Shown one piece after another: positions 31,308-62,035 of a stretch of 64,000 nt of DNA. The position numbers and the translations under genes were made by a program. Every line of letters starts with the position of its first letter. Position 1 is the stretch's first letter. This DNA comes from Escherichia coli. GTDB lineage: Bacteria; Pseudomonadota; Gammaproteobacteria; Enterobacterales; Enterobacteriaceae. The notes beneath the pieces were generated by a model. The model had not been told where the DNA came from and made no database searches. It saw nothing but the letters and a program-made list of their open reading frames with translations. Where the stretch lies: NCBI RefSeq assembly GCF_002854065.1, contig NZ_CP024147.1; one strand, written 5' to 3'.

Positions 31308-32849
<1,542 letters not shown>

Positions 32850-32934: not shown

Positions 32935-33010
32935 GTCCCCTTCGTCTAGAGGCCCAGGACACCGCCCTTTCACGGCGGTAACAGGGGTTCGAATCCCCTA
33001 GGGGACGCCA
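32935..33010 (+). tRNA. gltV: tRNA-Glu (UUC) in 16S-23S spacer
   Basis: gtccccttcgtctagaggcccaggacaccgccctttcacggcggtaacaggggttcgaatcccctaggggacgcca, 76 nt cloverleaf with anticodon-loop cctttcacgg. Confidence 0.97.
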
Positions 33011-33203
33011 CTTGCTGGTTTGTGAGTGAAAGTCGCCGACCTTAATATCTCAAAACTCATCTTCGGGTGATGTTTGAGATATTTGCTCTTTAAAAATCTG
33101 GATCAAGCTGAAAATTGAAACACTGAACAACGAAAGTTGTTCGTGAGTCTCTCAAATTTTCGCAACACGATGATGAGTCGCAAGAAACATCTTCGGGTTG
33201 TGA

Positions 33204-36107
<2,904 letters not shown>

Positions 36108-36199: not shown

Positions 36200-36319
36200 T
36201 GCCTGGCGGCCGTAGCGCGGTGGTCCCACCTGACCCCATGCCGAACTCAGAAGTGAAACGCCGTAGCGCCGATGGTAGTGTGGGGTCTCCCCATGCGAGA
36301 GTAGGGAACTGCCAGGCAT
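36200..36319 (+). rRNA. rrfE: 5S ribosomal RNA
   Basis: TGCCTGGCGGCCGTAGCGCGGTGGTCCCACCTGACCCCATGCCGAACTCAG...GGAACTGCCAGGCAT, 120 nt. Confidence 0.98.
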
Positions 36320-36320
36320 C

Positions 36321-36360
36321 AAATAAAACGAAAGGCCATCCTGACGGATGGCCTTTTTGC
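36321..36360 (+). terminator. rRNA operon terminator
   Basis: aaaggccatcctgacggatggcctttttgcg hairpin plus T-run immediately after 5S. Confidence 0.85.
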
Positions 36361-36433
36361 GTTGGTGCAAAAAAATGCCGGATGCGACGCTGGCGCGTTT
36401 TATCCAGCTTACGCAGGCACGATAGGGGGCAGC

Positions 36434-36877
36434 TTATTCCCCCACATACGCCAGATTCAGCAACGGATACGGTTTCCCCAAATCGTCCACCTCAGAGCGT
36501 CCCGTAACCTTAAAACACACCTTCTTATAGAACCCAACCGCCTGCTCATTTTGCTCATTAACGTTGGTTGTCAGTTCCGGTGCCATCGAGAGCGCATGCT
36601 CCACCAGCATCCGACCCACGCCGCAGCCGCACACATCAGGATCGATAAACAGCGCATCCATATGCTGCCCACTTAACAACATAAACCCAACCGGCTGATC
36701 CCGTTCATTAACCGCGACCCACAACGGTGCTTCCGGCAGAAAGGAACGAACCAGCTCTTCCAGCTCGGCCCGATACTCTGCTGATAAAAAATCGTGGGTG
36801 GCATCGACAGATCGACACCAAATCGCAACGAGTTCCTCCCCTTCCTCATGCCGTGAGCGGCGAATACTAATAACCAT
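36434..36877 (-). CDS. yjaB: GNAT family N-acetyltransferase YjaB
   Basis: 147-aa ORF with GNAT acetyl-CoA-binding motif (VDPDVCGCGVGRMLVEHA); divergent from metA. Confidence 0.88.
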   Translation of the reverse strand: MVISIRRSRHEEGEELVAIWCRSVDATHDFLSAEYRAELEELVRSFLPEAPLWVAVNERDQPVGFMLLSGQHMDALFIDPDVCGCGVGRMLVEHALSMAPELTTNVNEQNEQAVGFYKKVCFKVTGRSEVDDLGKPYPLLNLAYVGE

Positions 36878-41184: not shown

Positions 41185-41328
41185 CTGACTGTAGGCCGGA
41201 TAAGGCATTTACGCCGCATCCGGCAATCGGTGCACGATGCCTGATGCGACGCTTGCGCGTCTTATCATGCCTACAACCGTTGCCGAACGTAGGCTGGATA
41301 AGGCGTTTACGCCGCATCCGGCAATTCT
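41185..41328. repeat. REP/BIME cluster (three REP units) in aceA-aceK intergenic region
   Basis: Imperfect palindromes gtaggccggataaggcatttacgccgcatccggca / gcctgatgcgacgcttgcgcgtcttatcatgcctac / gtaggctggataaggcgtttacgccgcatccggca. Confidence 0.9.
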
Positions 41329-41350: not shown

Positions 41351-45242
<3,892 letters not shown>

Positions 45243-53277: not shown

Positions 53278-54507
53278 TTAATCATGGGAAATTGCCTCTG
53301 CATGAGTGAGCAGATATTGCTCCGCCTCACCGGACCAGATCCCCTGATGACGCGCCAGAATCGCCGCCAGTGCTTGATCCTGAATCTGCGTGAGTGACGT
53401 CAGCGGCAGGTATTTCCCGGTATACACCAGCTTTTTGCCGCCGCCGACGGCAGGCAATTCAAGCGTGGTTTCGCCCGCGGCATTCAGCCCAAGAATATGT
53501 GTTACCACTTTTGCGGCCTGCACTTTTTTCTCTTCGATCAGTTTGACCGCCGCGCGCATGTCGTCGGTATTGCCGCCTGACGTGCCCACGTAGTGGGTAA
53601 ATGCATAATGCACATCGTAGAAATTAATTGGCGCGCTGAAATGTTTATCCTGCGGTCCGGCGAAGAAATTCAGGCAACCATCTGTCGCCAGCAAGGAAGA
53701 GGCGAGAGTCACCAGTCCTTCATTAGGCACAAAGACGAAAATATCATCGAAGCCGTGACCGCCACTCAGCGCCATTAGCGTATCAAATGCTGCATCGGTG
53801 GCATTGAGATAATGAATCAGTGTTTGCGATTCTGATGGATAGTGCTTGCGCGCATAACTCAATTTATCGTTGTCGGTATCGGTAATGACGAGCAGCGACG
53901 GGTTAACGGGTCCATGCAGCGCATAATCAATCGCCAACAGTCCCATTGGTCCGGTGCCGCCGAGGATCAGCGTGCGCCCTTGCGGGCGAATCCCCATCGT
54001 GTGGTTATAACTACCTTCCTGAAGATGATAGTTGGCGTTGAACGCGCCAATCACGCAGGAAAGCGGTTCAACCAGCGAGCCTTCAAAATAGGTTTCGCCG
54101 TCGTATGCCAGCAGGCAATCTTGTTCCATGACCTCGTTGGGAATAACCACATGCGTGGCTTCGCCGCCTACCCACGGGAAGGAGTAGCCGGGGCAGTCCG
54201 GGCGGTCGGGGAGTTGCAGGTTGGCCTGAATCACATAACGCTGACCCGGCTGGAATTTGTGCTGCCACTTTTTACCCACGGCCAGAATATCGCCGCAAAA
54301 CTCGTGGCCGATGATGATTGGGTTGGTCGCCACATCGTCGGGTACTTTTTTATGGTTTTCACCCAGGTTGGCCTCTTTCCAGGAAGAGAGGCACAGGCTG
54401 TCAGTGACCACCGTCGCGAGGATTTCTTCCTCCTGCATTTCAGGAAGGTCAAAGGTTTCCAGGCGTAAATCACGTTTACCATAAAGACGCAGAGCTGTTG
54501 TTTTCAT
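53278..54507 (-). CDS. sorE: L-sorbose-1-phosphate reductase (zinc-dependent MDR dehydrogenase)
   Basis: 409-aa product from MKTTALRLYG; GHEFCGDI zinc-ADH motif and Rossmann GGTGPMG; last gene of seven-gene sor cluster. Confidence 0.8.
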   Translation of the reverse strand: MKTTALRLYGKRDLRLETFDLPEMQEEEILATVVTDSLCLSSWKEANLGENHKKVPDDVATNPIIIGHEFCGDILAVGKKWQHKFQPGQRYVIQANLQLPDRPDCPGYSFPWVGGEATHVVIPNEVMEQDCLLAYDGETYFEGSLVEPLSCVIGAFNANYHLQEGSYNHTMGIRPQGRTLILGGTGPMGLLAIDYALHGPVNPSLLVITDTDNDKLSYARKHYPSESQTLIHYLNATDAAFDTLMALSGGHGFDDIFVFVPNEGLVTLASSLLATDGCLNFFAGPQDKHFSAPINFYDVHYAFTHYVGTSGGNTDDMRAAVKLIEEKKVQAAKVVTHILGLNAAGETTLELPAVGGGKKLVYTGKYLPLTSLTQIQDQALAAILARHQGIWSGEAEQYLLTHAEAISHD

Positions 54508-54558
54508 AAACCACCTCATGTTGAGCGATGGCCCCGGCAGTCGTGCCGGGGCGAAGAA

Positions 54559-55383
54559 TCAGGACAGGAAGCCCAGCGCATTGCCGATAATTCCTAAGCC
54601 AAACAGGGCGAAAATCAGCCATACCGGGTTAATTTTTTTGTTGAGCAGACGAACCATTAGTAGCGTCAGACCGAGCGCCAGCAAACCAGGGCAAAGTTGG
54701 TCGAGAATGTTCTGCACGGTCATGGTGACGGTGGAGCCATCGGCGGCATGCGTTTGTGAAACCACCAACGGTACGTTGATTGACGTCCATTTGGTGACCA
54801 GCACGCCCATCACAAACAGTCCGAGAATCGACGCGCCTTCGGTGAGTTTTTGCAGCACATTCCCGCCCATATCGCTGACGATATTCACCCCTTTGCGAAA
54901 GCCGAGCTGTAGGCCATACCACTTCATCGCCAGACGCACCGCGTTGAAAATAAAGAAGAACAGCAGCGGGCCGAGAATGTTGCCCGAAAGTGCCAGAGAT
55001 GCGCCGAGCGCGGCGGTAATCGGGCGCAGCGTTCCCCAGACCAGTGGGTCGCCAACCCCTGCCAATGGTCCCATCAGACCGACTTTGATGCCGTTAATGG
55101 TACCGTCATCAATTTCCGCGCCGTTGGCCCGCGCCTCTTCCATGGCGGCAGTGACGCCGATGACCGGGCCACATACGGCTGGCGTGGTATTGAAGAACAC
55201 CAGGTGTCGCCTGAGCGCCGCAACCTGATCCTCTTTTAATGGGTAAAGTCGCTTGATGGCGGGGATCATGTCGTAGCAAAAACCCAGCCCGTGAATACGT
55301 TCAAAGTTAAAGGACGCCTGTTGCAGGTTGGAGCGCAGAAACATGCTCACCAGATCGCTGCGTGTAATTTTTCTCTGTTCCAT
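54559..55383 (-). CDS. sorM: PTS mannose/sorbose-family EIID component
   Basis: 274-aa product from MEQRKITRSDLVSMFLRSNLQQASFNFERI, resembling ManZ N-terminus; multi-TM. Confidence 0.8.
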   Translation of the reverse strand: MEQRKITRSDLVSMFLRSNLQQASFNFERIHGLGFCYDMIPAIKRLYPLKEDQVAALRRHLVFFNTTPAVCGPVIGVTAAMEEARANGAEIDDGTINGIKVGLMGPLAGVGDPLVWGTLRPITAALGASLALSGNILGPLLFFFIFNAVRLAMKWYGLQLGFRKGVNIVSDMGGNVLQKLTEGASILGLFVMGVLVTKWTSINVPLVVSQTHAADGSTVTMTVQNILDQLCPGLLALGLTLLMVRLLNKKINPVWLIFALFGLGIIGNALGFLS

Positions 55384-55393
55384 GATGGCTCCG

Positions 55394-56191
55394 TTAATCG
55401 TCAAGTTGGTCAAGGGCGGTGGAGGCGGTGGCCTGGAGTTGAGGTTCAGCTTTACGCCACTGTGGATTTAGCTGGATGTAGACCAGGGCCATGATCACGC
55501 CGACGCCACCGAACGCCAGCAGACTGAGATCGAGGTAGCCACCTGCGAGGAAACCGAGGAAAAAGAAAGGCATCAAATATTTCACGCCCATCATACGTAG
55601 CACCATGGCGTAACCGACCACCACGATAAAACCGCCAGCAATCTGTAGTCCTCGGGTCACAAATTCGGGAATGGCGTTTAACATATTGCTGACCATATCG
55701 GCGCTGACGAACAGCGAGACAATCAGTGCCGGAATAGCAACGCGCAGCGCCTGCACGCCAAGCGCGGAGACATGCAGAATATCGAAAGTGCGAAACCGCG
55801 CCTCTTCCGCTGCTTTATCCGCCGCGTGCTGGAACACTACGGTGATGGTACGGGCAAACACCGTCAGCACCTGGCCTGCCGCAGCCACAGGCAACGCGAT
55901 GGCGATTCCGGTGGCGATGCTTTGCTGACCAACGATAACCAGAATGGCGGAGATTATGCTGGCGAGTGCAGAGTCCGGAGATTGCGCCGCGCCGACGTTC
56001 ATCCAGCCGAGAGCTATCAATTCCAGCGTACCACCGAGTATTATTCCGGTTTTTAAATCACCGAGAATTAAACCAATCACCGTACAGGCAATTAACGGGC
56101 GATGAGTCTGAAATTCATCCAGCACGCTGCCCATTCCGGCAATACAGGAAAAAAGAAATATAGCAATAATTTGTAGGGTACTTATTTCCAT
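55394..56191 (-). CDS. sorA: PTS mannose/sorbose-family EIIC component
   Basis: 265-aa hydrophobic ORF MEISTLQIIAIFLFSCIAGMGSVLDEFQ, ManY-like. Confidence 0.8.
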   Translation of the reverse strand: MEISTLQIIAIFLFSCIAGMGSVLDEFQTHRPLIACTVIGLILGDLKTGIILGGTLELIALGWMNVGAAQSPDSALASIISAILVIVGQQSIATGIAIALPVAAAGQVLTVFARTITVVFQHAADKAAEEARFRTFDILHVSALGVQALRVAIPALIVSLFVSADMVSNMLNAIPEFVTRGLQIAGGFIVVVGYAMVLRMMGVKYLMPFFFLGFLAGGYLDLSLLAFGGVGVIMALVYIQLNPQWRKAEPQLQATASTALDQLDD

Positions 56192-56256
56192 GATTTGTCA
56201 CCTTTTAAGTGTCGTCATCCCTGCCTGTTAAAGCATATGTACACAGGCGCTATTAT

Positions 56257-56751
56257 TTAATTTGCGATTAACTGTTCGTTTATTTTGTCGATAATATTGA
56301 TTGAGGGATCTGACGCTACGACGCGTAAATCCAATATGACGCCAAGATTATTTAACTCATGAAATGCGTTAATATCATCATCATCTAATGAAACCGCTTT
56401 GGTTAACTGTTTTTTACCGGGCCGCCAGGCCATGCCGCCAATATTCAGGGTGCCTATTTTTACCCCCTGGCGAACCATCGCTAAGGCATCCTGTGGGCGA
56501 GTGAAAAGATAAAAAACGGTTTCGTCCTGATATTGCGGGTTGTGATAAACCGCGATGGCTTTTTCAATATTGACCACGTTAACCTTCATTCCCGGTGGCG
56601 CAGCCTGACGCAATAATGTCCGGCGAACTTCATCGTTATAAACTTCGTCATTGCAGATAATAATGCGCTGGGCGTTAGCCACTTTCGACCAGACGGTAGT
56701 GACCTGACCGTGGATCAGGCGGTCATCAATGCGGGCGAGCGTAATGTTCAT
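56257..56751 (-). CDS. sorB: PTS mannose/sorbose-family EIIB component
   Basis: 164-aa ORF with RIDDRLIHGQV phosphohistidine motif of EIIB-Man family. Confidence 0.8.
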   Translation of the reverse strand: MNITLARIDDRLIHGQVTTVWSKVANAQRIIICNDEVYNDEVRRTLLRQAAPPGMKVNVVNIEKAIAVYHNPQYQDETVFYLFTRPQDALAMVRQGVKIGTLNIGGMAWRPGKKQLTKAVSLDDDDINAFHELNNLGVILDLRVVASDPSINIIDKINEQLIAN

Positions 56752-57158
56752 CAGAAATCCTCCTCTGTCGTTGCCAGTTGTTTCCAGACAACGCAGGATT
56801 GCTTTGCGATTTGCGTCAGGTGTTCACACAGTTCATCAACATTCATGCTGTCCTGGTTATCAACCAGTTCGAGGGCCAGCGGCAGAGAAAGGCCGCTGAT
56901 TACCCGCAGACGAGGATTGCGCATCGCAAGCATCGCTGCCGCATTCCACGGGCTGCCGCACTGTAAATCCACGGTAATCAGCCACTCATCTTGATTGTGA
57001 ATGCTTACTAACTTTTCCAGCTTTGCTACGATGTCTCCGGCGTTCTCGCCGGGCACAAATTCAACGGCTTCAACATTGGTGTTGCCGTAAACCATCTGAA
57101 CCGATTCCAGCATGGCGCAAGCTAATTTGCCGTGGGCACAAAAAATGGCGTTGACCAT
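56751..57158 (-). CDS. sorF: PTS mannose/sorbose-family EIIA component
   Basis: 135-aa ORF MVNAIFCAHGKLACAML, EIIA-Man fold. Confidence 0.78.
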   Translation of the reverse strand: MVNAIFCAHGKLACAMLESVQMVYGNTNVEAVEFVPGENAGDIVAKLEKLVSIHNQDEWLITVDLQCGSPWNAAAMLAMRNPRLRVISGLSLPLALELVDNQDSMNVDELCEHLTQIAKQSCVVWKQLATTEEDF

Positions 57159-57167
57159 AAAGCCTCC

Positions 57168-57974
57168 TTATCCGCGCGTTTTGCCGCCCGCAATGTTAGT
57201 GGTTACTCCGGTGATGTAGCTGGCGCGTTCAGACAACAGATAACAAACAAAATCAGCGACTTCTGCTAATCTTCCGGCGCGCCCAATAGGAATGGCGTTT
57301 TTGGTATAGCCTTCACGCAGCTGCTCGACGGTGATATTGCGCGTCCACGCCAGCGCCTCTTCATATTCCGGCGTGCGTAGCCCGGTTTTTTCCAGAATCC
57401 CCGGCGCGATACCGACCACACGGATACCGTGTTTACCCAGCTCTTTCGACCAGGAGCGCGTGAAGCTATTGAGCGCGGCTTTGGTAGCGGCGTAACAGCT
57501 TTGTCCTTCTGAGCCTTCCAGTCCACTTTCTGAGGAAACATTCACAATCACGCCATCATGTTGTTTGACCATCTGTCGCGCCACCGCCTGCGACATCAGA
57601 AAAACGCCTTTCTGGTTGATATTGACCATTTTTTCGAATACAGCTTCGTTGAGTTCATACTTCCCGGCAGGCGCTTTCTCATCGACCAGCAGACGCGGGA
57701 AATTGACCCCGGCGTTATTGACCAGACCGTCGATGCGACCAAAACGCTGGATAATTTCCGCTACCGTATGATTTACCTCTTTGGCGCTGGAAATATCGGT
57801 CGGCCAAAACTGATAGCCTTTATGACCTTCATATTGTCCATCGCCACCGTGAATATCGACCATCTGTACATTCGCGCCTTGTGCTAATAATTCCTCTACA
57901 ATAGCCAGACCAATACCGGATGCGCCGCCGGTGACGATAATGATTTTATCCTGCAAATTTAACCACGTTTGCAT
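57168..57974 (-). CDS. sorD: SDR-family sorbitol(glucitol)-6-phosphate dehydrogenase
   Basis: 268-aa ORF with TGGASGIG cofactor motif and catalytic YxxxK (YAATKAAL). Confidence 0.8.
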   Translation of the reverse strand: MQTWLNLQDKIIIVTGGASGIGLAIVEELLAQGANVQMVDIHGGDGQYEGHKGYQFWPTDISSAKEVNHTVAEIIQRFGRIDGLVNNAGVNFPRLLVDEKAPAGKYELNEAVFEKMVNINQKGVFLMSQAVARQMVKQHDGVIVNVSSESGLEGSEGQSCYAATKAALNSFTRSWSKELGKHGIRVVGIAPGILEKTGLRTPEYEEALAWTRNITVEQLREGYTKNAIPIGRAGRLAEVADFVCYLLSERASYITGVTTNIAGGKTRG

Positions 57975-58043
57975 AACAGACTCCTGATTTTAGATAATAG
58001 GGACCCGCCGTAATTTTTATTACGATAATCATCGGGAAGATTT

Positions 58044-58991
58044 TTATTTCAGTAATAGTTCAGCTGTGCTGCTATTCGTTACCAGACAATTAATATATTT
58101 TCCACGCAGTGCACCAATAATTCCGCTGTATTTTTCTTCACTCATGGCAATGCCAATTGAATATCGTGCCTGCTTTAATTTATTCATTTCGATAGAGAGT
58201 GTTTTTTCGCTCATATTCGTTTCAACCATTGCGCCGTGAATATCAAAAAAGCGCGAGCAAATATCGCCAGCAACCTGGCGGGCATTCAGGTCGTCACTCT
58301 CTTCACCACCATAAAACGCATGCCAGTTAGCGCCGTCGCGAATGGCCGGTGAGCCAATTCCCACCAGGGCGACATCCAGATTATCCCAGTAGGCAGAGAT
58401 GGTTTTAAAGTGCTGAGACTGCATGATCCCATTACGAATTAAGGGGTTATCCAGCAGAGCCGGAAAATCCGCGAGATGCGATTCCCCTTTCAGCTTCGCA
58501 GCCGCGCTGTAGGTTAATGTGTTTACGTGATAGCGGCTTTCGAGTTTACCGGACGGTCCGCCAATAATTGGTACGCAGATTAACTGCCGCGATTGCCCCG
58601 CCTGCGGCAAGTTTTCAACCAGTGCGCTCACCGCGCGACCCCAGGAAAAACCGACAATATCGCCAGGCTCCAGCAAGCGATCCAGCAGTTGCGCGCCGTG
58701 TAACCCCATCATCGCCAGTTGAGTCTCTTCATCCTCATCATTTCCCGACACCACCACAACGTCTTTCAGGCCAAACTTTTGCTTCAGTTGCTGCTCCAGC
58801 CAGAGATTTTCGTTGTAGTCATAGTTGATGGCGATGGTGACAATTCCCTGATCGCGGCCTCGTTTAAGCAAGCGGCTGATGGTGGTGCGGTAAATACCCA
58901 GTTCGCGCGCGATTTGCGCCTGCGTCATATCCTGTTCGTAATAGAGTTGGGCAATCTTCACAATCAAACGGATATCGTCACTGTTTTCCAT
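58044..58991 (-). CDS. sorC: SorC-family transcriptional regulator of the sorbose operon
   Basis: 315-aa product from MENSDDIRLIVKIAQLYYEQDMTQAQIARELGIYRTTISRLL (N-terminal HTH) plus sugar-phosphate-binding domain; track ORF N-terminally extended. Confidence 0.8.
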   Translation of the reverse strand: MENSDDIRLIVKIAQLYYEQDMTQAQIARELGIYRTTISRLLKRGRDQGIVTIAINYDYNENLWLEQQLKQKFGLKDVVVVSGNDEDEETQLAMMGLHGAQLLDRLLEPGDIVGFSWGRAVSALVENLPQAGQSRQLICVPIIGGPSGKLESRYHVNTLTYSAAAKLKGESHLADFPALLDNPLIRNGIMQSQHFKTISAYWDNLDVALVGIGSPAIRDGANWHAFYGGEESDDLNARQVAGDICSRFFDIHGAMVETNMSEKTLSIEMNKLKQARYSIGIAMSEEKYSGIIGALRGKYINCLVTNSSTAELLLK

Positions 58992-59338
58992 TGCCGCCTC
59001 CTGGTTCTGCACATTTGTGCAAATACGCTTTCTCACCGCTTGATCTGATATAACCCCATCATGATGGCCTTTCAAAGCGATTTTTCACTCTTTGCATGGG
59101 GAGAAATAGCGCTTTCTCTTGCACATTTGTTTCTCTGCGCAGTAGTCATCAGCACAGGTGTGCAGCGATTCGTAATATGTTGATTATCCTTATTTTGACA
59201 GGCAAATTTGCATTGTACTTCCGGAGACACTTTTGTGATAAAAGGCGTGGCAGATCACATTTAATTTCGACGTTGCCGCATAACCCTGTTTTTCCCCGCT
59301 AAGAGGTACGGTATATTCCGCGTTTTACAGGAGAATTT

Positions 59339-60484: not shown

Positions 60485-60582
60485 GATGGTGCCCTCAGTG
60501 AGCCAGAGAGTTCAGTGTACGGGAATTCGTTTGCGAGCAGAACTGATAATATTCCTTTGTTCTCTTCGGTAATGACTCCAAC

Positions 60583-61086
60583 TTATTGATAGTGTTTTAT
60601 GTTCAGATAATGCCCGATGACTTTGTCATGCAGCTCCACCGATTTTGAGAACGACAGCGACTTCCGTCCCAGCCGTGCCAGGTGCTGCCTCAGATTCAGG
60701 TTATGCCGCTCAATTCGCTGCGTATATCGCTTGCTGATTACGTGCAGCTTTCCCTTCAGGCGGGATTCATACAGCGGCCAGCCATCCGTCATCCATATCA
60801 CCACGTCAAAGGGTGACAGCAGGCTCATAAGACGCCCCAGCGTCGCCATAGTGCGTTCACCGAATACGTGCGCAACAACCGTCTTCCGGAGCCTGTCATA
60901 CGCGTAAAACAGCCAGCGCTGGCGCGATTTAGCCCCGACGTATCCCCACTGTTCGTCCATTTCCGCGCAGACGATGACGTCACTGCCCGGCTGTATGCGC
61001 GAGGTTACCGACTGCGGCCTGAGTTTTTTAAATGGCGGAAAATCGTGTTGAGGCCAACGCCCATAATGCGGGCGGTTGCCCGGCAT
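60583..61086 (-). CDS. insB: IS1 transposase InsB (expressed as InsAB by -1 frameshift)
   Basis: 167-aa [54 protein letters not shown], overlapping insA in -1 frame. Confidence 0.97.
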
Positions 61087-61280
61087 CCAACGCCATTCAT
61101 GGCCATATCAATGATTTTCTGGTGCGTACCGGGTTGAGAAGCGGTGTAAGTGAACTGCAGTTGCCATGTTTTACGGCAGTGAGAGCAGAGATAGCGCTGA
61201 TGTCCGGCAGTGCTTTTGCCGTTACGCACCACCCCGTCAGTAGCTGAACAGGAGGGACAGCTGATAGAAACAGAAGCCAC
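61005..61280 (-). CDS. insA: IS1 protein InsA
   Basis: 91-aa [46 protein letters not shown], zinc-finger plus HTH. Confidence 0.97.
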
Positions 61281-61330
61281 TGGAGCACCTCAAAAACACC
61301 ATCATACACTAAATCAGTAAGTTGGCAGCA

Positions 61331-62035
61331 TCACCCGTTGGTGCTTTCCCAGCTTAATGCCGCTGAGGTGGTTTTTATCATGACTTCTGTTCGGTAGCCT
61401 GCATCTTTGAGTTTTTTTAATGTTTGTAGCGGCGTAGCGGCATTACGAAATGTTCCTTCGACAACAATATTGAGTTTATTGGCTATGGCCCTCTCTATTG
61501 CACGTTCGACCGTTTCGCCGGAAAATTTTGCCGTATGGGTAACAAAATCGTCGCCATAAGTTTGATATATATAATTAAAATCAGGGTGTAGAAATCTGAA
61601 ATCATCACCATTAATAATCATTATATTATTCTTTGTTTCCCTTTTTGCTAATTCGATTAGGGCGGATTTTCCGGCTCCTGGTTGTCCACCTAAAACAAAA
61701 CCAATGGGACTCTGCTGGGATGTGACGTCATGGTTTGTCAGACGCTGCCAAATAGAATCAAAAGACGCTTTATTTTCTGAATGCGCAGTATTATTAAATT
61801 CACGCTGATACTTTTTTCTGACCTGCTGGAGGCGTAACTTTTCCTGTGTAAAATCAACAAGTTCTGCTTGAGTGGAATAAAGATTGTCGCGATAGCTGAC
61901 TAATTGTGATAGCTCATCGTCTGAGTCCTGAACTTGTGAGGAAAAACAACTGTCGACGATATTTGATAAAAACGCGATGCACTGACTGGCGCCGTTTAAA
62001 AGTGCATCCTTTTCCATTAAAGTAGCCATTAACAC
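61331..62035 (-). pseudogene. zeta-toxin-family P-loop kinase with N-terminal extension (EzeT-like), 3-prime end truncated by IS1
   Basis: Walker A GGQPGAGKS and colinear similarity to zeta/PezT toxins; stop codon TGA is formed by bases 3-5 of the IS1 inverted repeat. Confidence 0.7.

What the first reader, a model, noticed from the sequence alone, without database searches (positions are those of the whole stretch)
36320..36433. yjaA is absent between the 5S rRNA and yjaB
Only 114 bp separate the 5S rRNA 3-prime end from the yjaB stop codon, and this interval holds just the rRNA terminator hairpin and a partial REP-like palindrome. In K-12 the yjaA gene (a Clermont phylotyping marker) lies at this position. 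With arpA present, this points to a yjaA-negative, non-B2 lineage and provides a clean deletion or insertion junction.
Basis: partly seen in the sequence, partly recalled or inferred. Interest (0 to 1): 0.25.

Follow-up and report, generated by a model that had tools for sequence, protein, structure and literature searches.

The report
Ordinary yjaA-negative E. coli rrnE–yjaB locus
This E. coli carries the common version of the spacer after its rrnE ribosomal RNA operon that lacks the small gene yjaA; about half of all sequenced E. coli look like this, and the gene's presence or absence has been a strain-typing marker since 2000, so the finding is correct but ordinary.

Summary
The mature 5S rRNA ends at 36319 and the yjaB stop codon starts at 36434. 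The 114 bp between them hold one strong terminator hairpin and one full-length but degenerate REP element. There is no trace of yjaA.

K-12 does carry yjaA (384 bp) in this slot. arpA is intact in the window. Both phylogroup-E-specific arpA primers match exactly. The closest complete genome (CUWW06, 100% identical over 24.7 kb) has chuA and no yjaA anywhere. The lineage is therefore yjaA-negative, non-B2 and, by the Clermont scheme, phylogroup E.

This state is common. Of 5426 complete E. coli genomes, 2594 have yjaA and about 2811 have the yjaA-less junction. About 1980 of those have the short form seen here, and 830 have a longer form with the rrnB-like T1–spacer–T2 terminators.

It is not a clean insertion or deletion. 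The whole spacer, from 7 nt after the 5S gene to the yjaB stop, is replaced: about 105 bp here against about 512 bp in K-12. The two versions share no detectable homology, and each has its own terminator.

The yjaA-less layout is also found in Salmonella, Citrobacter, Klebsiella and cryptic Escherichia clades. Kosakonia and Phytobacter have yjaA in the same slot, so both versions are old. This is already known and of low interest.

The parts
36200..36319 (+). 5S rRNA gene of the rrnE operon (rrfE). It forms the left flank of the variable spacer.
   Evidence: Rfam RF00001 36202-36317, 92.8 bits; RefSeq rrf at the same place in identical loci; sequence read.
36306..36336 (+). 5S 3' end plus terminator leader (GAACTGCCAGGCATCAAATAAAACGAAAGGC). 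This is the unit that occurs twice, as a direct repeat, in the long T1-spacer-T2 alleles and in rrnB. Here there is a single copy whose leader reads like T1 and whose hairpin reads like T2.
   Evidence: Alignment A2 of K-12 rrnB, PK8276 and ESC818 rrnE, and the window.
36330..36357 (+). rrnE intrinsic terminator of the rrnB-T2 type. The stem GGCCATCC / GGATGGCC is identical to K-12 rrnB T2. It is followed by a T-run and preceded by an A-run, so it looks like a terminator on both strands.
   Evidence: dG -20 kcal/mol, z -5.6; terminator-like site reported on the minus strand; identity to rrnB T2 in alignment A2.
36377..36412 (+). Single REP element, full length, with 3 substitutions in its 3' arm (GCCGGATGCGACGCTGGCGCGTTTTATCCAGCTTAC).
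   Evidence: Pattern search: 3 mismatches, 0 expected by chance. The same REP sits in other yjaA-less E. coli and in cryptic Escherichia clades.
36413..36433 (.). Short spacer (GCAGGCACGATAGGGGGCAGC) between the REP and the yjaB stop codon. It is shared by yjaA-less alleles and carries an 8-bp tandem duplication in some strains.
   Evidence: Interval comparison across 13 loci.
36434..36877 (-). yjaB, a GNAT acetyltransferase of 147 aa ending ...AYVGE*. It forms the right flank of the variable spacer.
   Evidence: ORF; NF007807 equivalog, 271.8 bits; RefSeq annotation.
43056..45242 (-). arpA, intact at 728 aa. RefSeq/PGAP labels it 'espL4'.
   Evidence: 96% identity over 728 aa to the K-12 protein at the same position.
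42677..43076 (+). In-silico Clermont arpA amplicon (AceK.f / ArpA1.r), 400 bp. There are 2 and 1 mismatches, all away from the primers' 3' ends.
   Evidence: primer sequences verified in PMC4322292.
44557..44857 (+). In-silico phylogroup-E-specific arpA amplicon (ArpAgpE.f / ArpAgpE.r), 301 bp, both primers matching exactly.
   Evidence: K-12 differs from each primer at its 3'-terminal base.

Best explanation
The window carries the naturally occurring, inherited yjaA-less haplotype of the rrnE-yjaB spacer, in its short form. The 5S gene is followed directly by an rrnB-T2-type intrinsic terminator that ends rrnE transcription. A single REP element then sits just beyond the 3' end of the convergent yjaB gene. 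Nothing was recently deleted in this strain. The same 114-bp spacer, differing by 1 nt, is found in O157:H7, and closely related versions occur in about a third of complete E. coli genomes. The lineage is arpA+, yjaA-negative and, by the E-specific arpA allele, phylogroup E. Relative to K-12, the whole spacer is an alternative allele: about 105 bp against about 512 bp that contain a different terminator, yjaA and a yjaA/yjaB hairpin. I infer that such alleles are exchanged or retained as a block by homologous recombination in the conserved flanks (5S/23S rRNA on one side, yjaB-metA on the other). I also infer that the short form differs from the long T1-spacer-T2 form by loss of about 170-178 bp between two roughly 31-bp direct repeats (5S 3' end plus leader). 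This would explain why the window's leader reads like T1 while its hairpin reads like T2.
For: Shown: the anatomy of the interval. K-12 has yjaA here. There is no yjaA in the window or anywhere in the closest complete genomes CUWW06 and 100416. Population counts: yjaA in 2594 of 5426 genomes, single copy; the yjaA-less junction in 2811; the long T1-T2 form in 830. The two classes sum to 5405 of 5426, so they are essentially complementary. O157:H7 has the same 123-nt 5S-to-yjaB anchor segment with 1 difference. There is no detectable homology between the window spacer and the K-12 yjaA segment: 86 of 500 shuffles score as well. The long alleles are collinear with K-12 rrnB T1-spacer-repeat-T2, and the window lacks exactly the segment between the repeats. 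Outgroups: 5S - T2-type terminator - REP - yjaB without yjaA in Salmonella, Citrobacter, Klebsiella, Pseudocitrobacter, and Escherichia sp. E1V33 and MOD1-EC7003. For phylogroup: arpA is intact, ArpAgpE primers are exact at 301 bp, K-12 mismatches both at the 3' base, and chuA is present with a 288-bp amplicon in CUWW06. The genotype table is in PMC4322292.
Against: The window is only 64 kb, so chuA, TspE4.C2 and a relocated yjaA cannot be checked in the source genome itself. They were checked only in near-identical complete genomes. No complete genome is identical to the window throughout: CUWW06 has an extra IS1 in the sorbose operon, and 100416 diverges after 60567. The repeat-mediated origin of the short form, and block exchange by flanking recombination, are inferred from sequence comparison; no phylogenetic test was made. 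The count of about 1981 short alleles comes from subtracting two searches, and at least one off-target row appeared among the >=80% class (H146). Terminator function was not measured. REP folding is not better than shuffles (z -0.3 and -1.1).
Confidence: 0.9

Rival explanations
1. Empty ancestral site: yjaA was never in this lineage. The 5S-terminator-REP-yjaB layout is the ancestral Escherichia state, and yjaA, with its own terminator, was brought into phylogroups A, B2 and C by recombination from outside. This concerns only the direction of change; the description of the window stays the same.
For: Salmonella, Citrobacter, Klebsiella, Pseudocitrobacter and two cryptic Escherichia lineages all show the yjaA-less layout, with a REP at the equivalent place. 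The K-12-type haplotype has a terminator hairpin (CCCCGG...CCGGGG) unlike the T2 type seen in all the others. E. whittamii carries a K-12-identical YjaA, which suggests block transfer between lineages.
Against: Kosakonia S29 and Phytobacter diazotrophicus have yjaA (65-66% aa identity) in exactly this slot, between a T2-type rrn terminator and yjaB, with a homologous leader GCATGAT(A/G)AAGG..CATG. E. coli HH45 has a decayed, 5'-truncated yjaA at 89% identity behind a T2-type terminator, which shows loss in progress. yjaA is not on real plasmids or phages.
Confidence: 0.3
2. Recent strain-specific deletion of yjaA from a K-12-like spacer.
For: None beyond the smaller size of the spacer.
Against: The spacer is not a subset of the K-12 sequence; it contains about 105 bp with no homology to it. 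Near-identical spacers occur in O157:H7 and in about 1980 complete genomes, and also in cryptic Escherichia clades.
Confidence: 0.02
3. Assembly artefact: collapse or mis-join at the repeated rrn operon removed yjaA.
For: rRNA operons are classic mis-assembly sites.
Against: The same junction is present in thousands of complete (mostly long-read) genomes, including two that are 99.9-100% identical across it. The flanks are collinear with K-12 on both sides.
Confidence: 0.01

Closest known systems
yjaA presence/absence marker of Clermont phylotyping (triplex 2000, quadruplex 2013)
   Same: It is the same locus and the same polymorphism. The window is the yjaA-negative state: neither primer pair has a site here, while both give the expected 211-bp product on K-12 (primers in PMC4322292).
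   Different: Nothing differs in kind. This work only adds the anatomy of the negative allele and its frequency: 2832 of 5426 complete genomes have no yjaA hit.
E. coli O157:H7 (phylogroup E) rrnE-yjaB locus
   Same: Same short spacer, with 1 difference in the 123-nt 5S-to-yjaB anchor segment; 98.8% identity over 801 bp; same E-specific arpA allele.
   Different: The window's lineage (CUWW06, 100416, XJ34) is about 1.5% diverged from O157:H7 over 24 kb, so it is a different clone within or near phylogroup E.
rrnB T1-T2 tandem terminator region of E. coli K-12
   Same: The window hairpin GGCCATCCTGACGGATGGCC plus T-run is identical to rrnB T2. The leader CAAATAAAACGAAAGGC is identical to the rrnB T1 leader.
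   Different: There is only one terminator here. T1 and the spacer of roughly 110-120 nt are missing, and downstream there is a REP and yjaB instead of murB. 830 genomes carry the full T1-spacer-T2 arrangement at rrnE.
REP (repetitive extragenic palindromic) elements
   Same: A 36-nt match to the consensus in an intergenic position beyond the 3' end of a gene.
   Different: It is a single copy rather than a BIME pair, with three substitutions that weaken the 3' arm. Its predicted folding is no better than shuffled sequence.

Membership tests
Clermont yjaA-negative genotype | No product from yjaA.1b/yjaA.2b (211 bp) or the 2000-scheme yjaA primers | tested here: met
   No sites in the window with up to 3 mismatches. 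K-12 gives exact sites 211 bp apart. The quadruplex primer sequences were verified in PMC4322292; the 2000-scheme pair was recalled from memory and checked only by its exact match to K-12.
Clermont yjaA-negative genotype | No yjaA gene anywhere in the genome | tested here: inconclusive
   Absent from the 64-kb window and from the full chromosomes of the closest complete genomes CUWW06 and 100416. The source genome itself is not available.
Phylogroup E (Clermont 2013 quadruplex plus E-specific PCR) | arpA positive (AceK.f/ArpA1.r, 400 bp) | tested here: met
   Sites at 42677-43076, 400 bp apart, with 2 and 1 mismatches away from the 3' ends. arpA is intact at 728 aa.
Phylogroup E (Clermont 2013 quadruplex plus E-specific PCR) | E-specific arpA allele (ArpAgpE.f/r, 301 bp) | tested here: met
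   Both primers match exactly at 44557-44857. K-12 mismatches the 3'-terminal base of each.
Phylogroup E (Clermont 2013 quadruplex plus E-specific PCR) | chuA positive | not testable with these tools
   chuA lies outside the window. In CUWW06 (100% identical over 24.7 kb) chuA is annotated, and chuA.1b/chuA.2 give 288 bp.
Phylogroup B2 (considered and rejected) | arpA negative, usually yjaA positive | tested here: not met
   arpA is present and intact and yjaA is absent. Genotypes are listed in PMC4322292.
Intrinsic (rho-independent) terminator, rrnB T2 type | G+C-rich hairpin followed by a U-run directly after the 5S gene, with sequence identity to rrnB T2 | tested here: met
   dG -20 kcal/mol, z -5.6; hairpin identical to K-12 rrnB T2. 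Termination activity was not measured.
REP element | Match to the ~35-nt imperfect palindrome consensus in an extragenic position | tested here: met
   36377-36412, 3 mismatches, none expected by chance. The consensus was written from memory of the published REP consensus.
REP element | Forms a stable stem-loop | tested here: inconclusive
   MFE -21.6 and -20.8 kcal/mol, but z is only -0.3 and -1.1 against shuffles.
YjaB acetyltransferase (NCBIfam NF007807) | Score above the equivalog cutoff | tested here: met
   271.8 bits against a cutoff of 134.

The most novel reading that the evidence does not exclude
The rrnE-yjaB spacer may be an old presence/absence polymorphism that crosses species boundaries. 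On this reading, yjaA sat in this slot in an ancestor shared with Kosakonia and Phytobacter, and it has been lost repeatedly, with REP elements colonising the gap. In Escherichia the two non-homologous spacer haplotypes, each with its own rrn terminator, persist side by side and are shuffled as blocks by recombination. The ultra-conserved, multi-copy rRNA operon would serve as one homology arm. This could partly decouple a classic phylotyping marker from the genome phylogeny. The HH45 remnant and the K-12-identical haplotype in E. whittamii are hints in this direction.
Probability: 0.35. Interest if true: 0.2.

Novelty: already known. Interest (0 to 1): 0.07.

Why it matters
It matters little. 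The finding correctly labels the strain as yjaA-negative, arpA-positive and of phylogroup-E type, which is routine typing information. The only modest addition concerns the negative allele itself. It is not an 'empty site' left by a simple indel but an alternative spacer with a different rrn terminator and a REP, and E. coli carries at least four structural versions of this spacer. That is useful to anyone designing or interpreting assays at this locus, or using it to study recombination next to rRNA operons.

Tried and rejected
1. Residual homology: I looked for leftover similarity between the window spacer and the K-12 yjaA segment or the yjaA-yjaB intergenic region. Local alignments scored no better than shuffles, so no deletion scar can be defined.

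2. First chimeric query: yjaB-metA-aceB plus reverse-complemented yjaA, meant to test for yjaA elsewhere in the closest genomes, was uninformative because every genome showed an unrelated second place. A shorter chimera with a stricter E-value worked.

3. Mobile-element origin of yjaA: the plasmid hits are 655-kb engineered or split E. coli replicons, a 7-kb unannotated fragment, and 4-Mb Proteus chromosomes filed as plasmids. There were no phage hits. Rejected.

4. Proteus mirabilis homologue (36% identity): it is not next to an rRNA operon or yjaB, so it says nothing about how old the arrangement is.

5. Pfam has no family for YjaA, and NCBIfam has none for ArpA.

6. Two tool calls failed for technical reasons.

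7. I did not run the large protein-database searches or any structure prediction. They return no taxonomy or genomic context and would not change the verdict.

Full report
**What is at the coordinates**

The window is the E. coli rrnE region. Rfam finds 16S (31308-32849), a tRNA (32935-33007), 23S (33204-36106) and 5S (36202-36317) on the plus strand. The sequence itself shows the 120-nt mature 5S at 36200-36319.

The next gene is a 147-aa ORF on the minus strand at 36434-36877. It is YjaB: NCBIfam equivalog NF007807 scores 271.8 bits against a cutoff of 134, and RefSeq annotates the identical protein as yjaB in strains 100416 and CUWW06. metA, aceB, aceA, aceK, arpA, iclR and metH follow in the K-12 order.

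**Contents of the interval**

- Positions 36330-36357 form a 12-bp hairpin (GAAAGGCCATCC / GGATGGCCTTTT). Its dG is -20 kcal/mol and z is -5.6, and none of 200 shuffles folds as well. It is followed by the rest of a T-run and preceded by an A-run. The consensus scan reports it as terminator-like on the minus strand.
- Positions 36377-36412 match the 36-nt REP consensus with 3 mismatches, with none expected by chance. The element is full length but degenerate, not partial. Its predicted folding is no better than shuffled sequence.
- No yjaA is present. tblastn and short-word blastn with the K-12 gene give only chance hits in the 64-kb window, and all four yjaA primers lack sites.

In BW25113 the order is rrf - yjaA (384 bp, 'YjaA family stress response protein') - yjaB - metA - aceB. 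The recalled gene order is correct.

**Is yjaA somewhere else?**

The source genome is not available. Two complete genomes are nearly identical to the window. CUWW06 is 100% identical over 24.7 kb, apart from an IS1 in its sorbose operon. Strain 100416 is 99.9% identical up to window position 60567.

A chimeric query of the window's yjaB plus reverse-complemented K-12 yjaA found only the yjaB place in both chromosomes at E <= 1e-12. Across the species yjaA is single-copy (median 1 place per genome). In all 40 sampled rows the match lies under the gene annotated yjaA or, in HH45, under its pseudogene remnant. In every locus I inspected it sits beside yjaB.

**How common is this state?**

- yjaA is found in 2594 of 5426 complete E. 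coli genomes.
- A junction query (100 nt of 5S + the 114 bp + 100 nt of yjaB) is covered at >=80% in 2811 genomes.
- The two classes sum to 5405 of 5426, so they are essentially complementary.
- A query specific for a longer yjaA-less form is covered in 830 genomes.
- That leaves roughly 1980 genomes (about 36%) with the short form seen here.

The yjaA-less state is thus the slight majority, and the window's form is the commonest single structure after the yjaA form.

**Anatomy of the alleles**

1. Short form (the window, O157:H7, Ec1119, 357900, GN02461, GPEC1035): 5S, one T2-type hairpin, a REP, about 20 nt of spacer, then the yjaB stop.
2. Long form (PK8276, ESC818): 5S, the rrnB-T1 hairpin, a spacer of roughly 110-120 nt, a second copy of the 5S 3' end (AAACTGCCAGGCATCAAAT...), the T2 hairpin, a REP, then yjaB. 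It is collinear and nearly identical with K-12 rrnB T1-T2 up to the end of T2.
3. yjaA form (K-12, B2 strains, E. whittamii): 5S, a different hairpin (CCCCGGTCCATAAGGCCGGGG), yjaA, a GGTGGG...CCCACC hairpin, then yjaB.
4. HH45: 5S, a T2-type hairpin, then a 5'-truncated and frameshifted yjaA remnant that is 89% identical to K-12.

All forms share sequence only up to about 7 nt after the 5S gene and from about 2 nt before the yjaB stop codon. The last codons differ by point substitutions only (GE*, GA* or GV*). Between these points, the window's roughly 105 bp and K-12's roughly 512 bp have no detectable similarity; 86 of 500 shuffles score as well. So this is a substitution of the whole spacer, not a clean insertion or deletion with a recognisable scar.

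**Short versus long form**

The long form contains two direct repeats of about 31 nt, made of the 5S 3' end plus the terminator leader. The window lacks exactly the segment between them. Its leader (CAAATAAAACGAAAGGC) is identical to the rrnB T1 leader, while its hairpin is identical to rrnB T2. This is what a deletion between the repeats, or an unequal exchange, would leave. That origin is inferred, not shown. Both forms also occur in Salmonella (S. arizonae short, S. diarizonae long), so the change is either old or recurrent.

**Direction of change for yjaA**

A scan of species-representative genomes with YjaB gave the following.

- 5S - T2-type terminator - REP(s) - yjaB without yjaA is seen where the contig reaches the rRNA operon: in Salmonella, several Citrobacter and Klebsiella species, and Pseudocitrobacter. 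Escherichia sp. E1V33 and MOD1-EC7003 show the same terminator-REP tail, with the contigs ending at or just inside the 5S gene.
- Kosakonia sp. S29 and Phytobacter diazotrophicus have a YjaA homologue (65-66% identity) in exactly this slot. It lies behind a T2-type terminator and has a leader homologous to K-12's (GCATGATAAAGGAAT..CATG against GCATGATGAAGGGAATCTCATG).
- yjaA is not carried by genuine plasmids or by phages.
- The distant Proteus homologue lies in an unrelated context.

Together with the HH45 remnant, this favours yjaA being an old resident of the slot that has been lost repeatedly. I put that at about 0.55. The alternative is re-introduction into some E. coli lineages by recombination, at about 0.3. 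I could not run the phylogenetic test that would decide between them. Either way, the window shows an inherited allele, not a recent event.

**Lineage**

arpA is intact at 728 aa and 96% identical to K-12. PGAP labels it 'espL4' even in K-12. The quadruplex arpA primers lie 400 bp apart with mismatches only in their 5' halves. The genotype list in PMC4322292 gives B2 and F as arpA-negative, and C and part of A as yjaA-positive. arpA+ with yjaA- therefore leaves part of A, B1, D or E.

Both E-specific primers match exactly and give 301 bp. K-12 differs from each at its 3'-terminal base. CUWW06 carries the chu operon, with a 288-bp chuA amplicon. By the Clermont scheme this lineage types as phylogroup E. 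TspE4.C2 was not checked.

**Verdict**

The phenomenon is the textbook yjaA polymorphism, so it is already known and of low interest. The only refinement is that the negative allele is a distinct spacer haplotype rather than a simple deletion junction.

Noticed in passing
window 53278-59075: An L-sorbose utilisation operon (sorE, mannose-family PTS IID/IIC/IIB/IIA, an SDR oxidoreductase, a regulator) lies between pepE and rluF. Only 2840 of 5426 genomes cover >=80% of 36320-61000, so this region is variable. The closest genome, CUWW06, has an IS1 inside the IIB gene that the window lacks.
   Followed up: partly
window 60568-61335 and 61331-62035: An IS1 copy (exact terminal inverted repeat at 61313-61335; IS1 transposase ORF at 60583-61086) abuts and apparently truncates the 5' end of a Zeta_toxin-domain ORF next to lysC. 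Strain 100416 stops aligning exactly at the IS1 edge.
   Followed up: partly
window 43056-45242; L053 2226-4412: RefSeq/PGAP names arpA 'type III secretion system effector EspL4', even in K-12. Searching annotations for the name arpA would miss this Clermont marker.
   Followed up: no
L004 (E. coli HH45) 1952-2263: A 5'-truncated, frameshifted yjaA remnant, 89% identical to K-12, sits behind a T2-type terminator. It is an intermediate state between the yjaA and yjaA-less alleles. Whether the yjaA primers would still amplify it was not checked.
   Followed up: partly
L003 (PK8276) and L010 (GPEC1035), just before the yjaB stop: An 8-bp tandem duplication (GCACGATA or GCATGATA) occurs in the spacer between the REP and yjaB in some strains.
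   Followed up: no
L013 (Escherichia whittamii Sa2BVA5): The representative genome of this separate species carries the K-12-type spacer, with YjaA 100% identical in protein sequence to K-12. This suggests recent exchange of the block between lineages.
   Followed up: no
L047 / L038 (Escherichia sp. MOD1-EC7003): yjaB is split across two contigs. Unrelated sequence, possibly from an insertion element, follows codon 52, so yjaB may be interrupted in that genome.
   Followed up: no
window 41239-41274: A second REP-like match (3 mismatches) lies in the aceA-aceK intergenic region.
   Followed up: no
window 33088-33196: Rfam reports StyR-44 in the spacer between the tRNA gene and the 23S gene of the rRNA operon. 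I take this to be a routine hit in enterobacterial rRNA operons.
   Followed up: no
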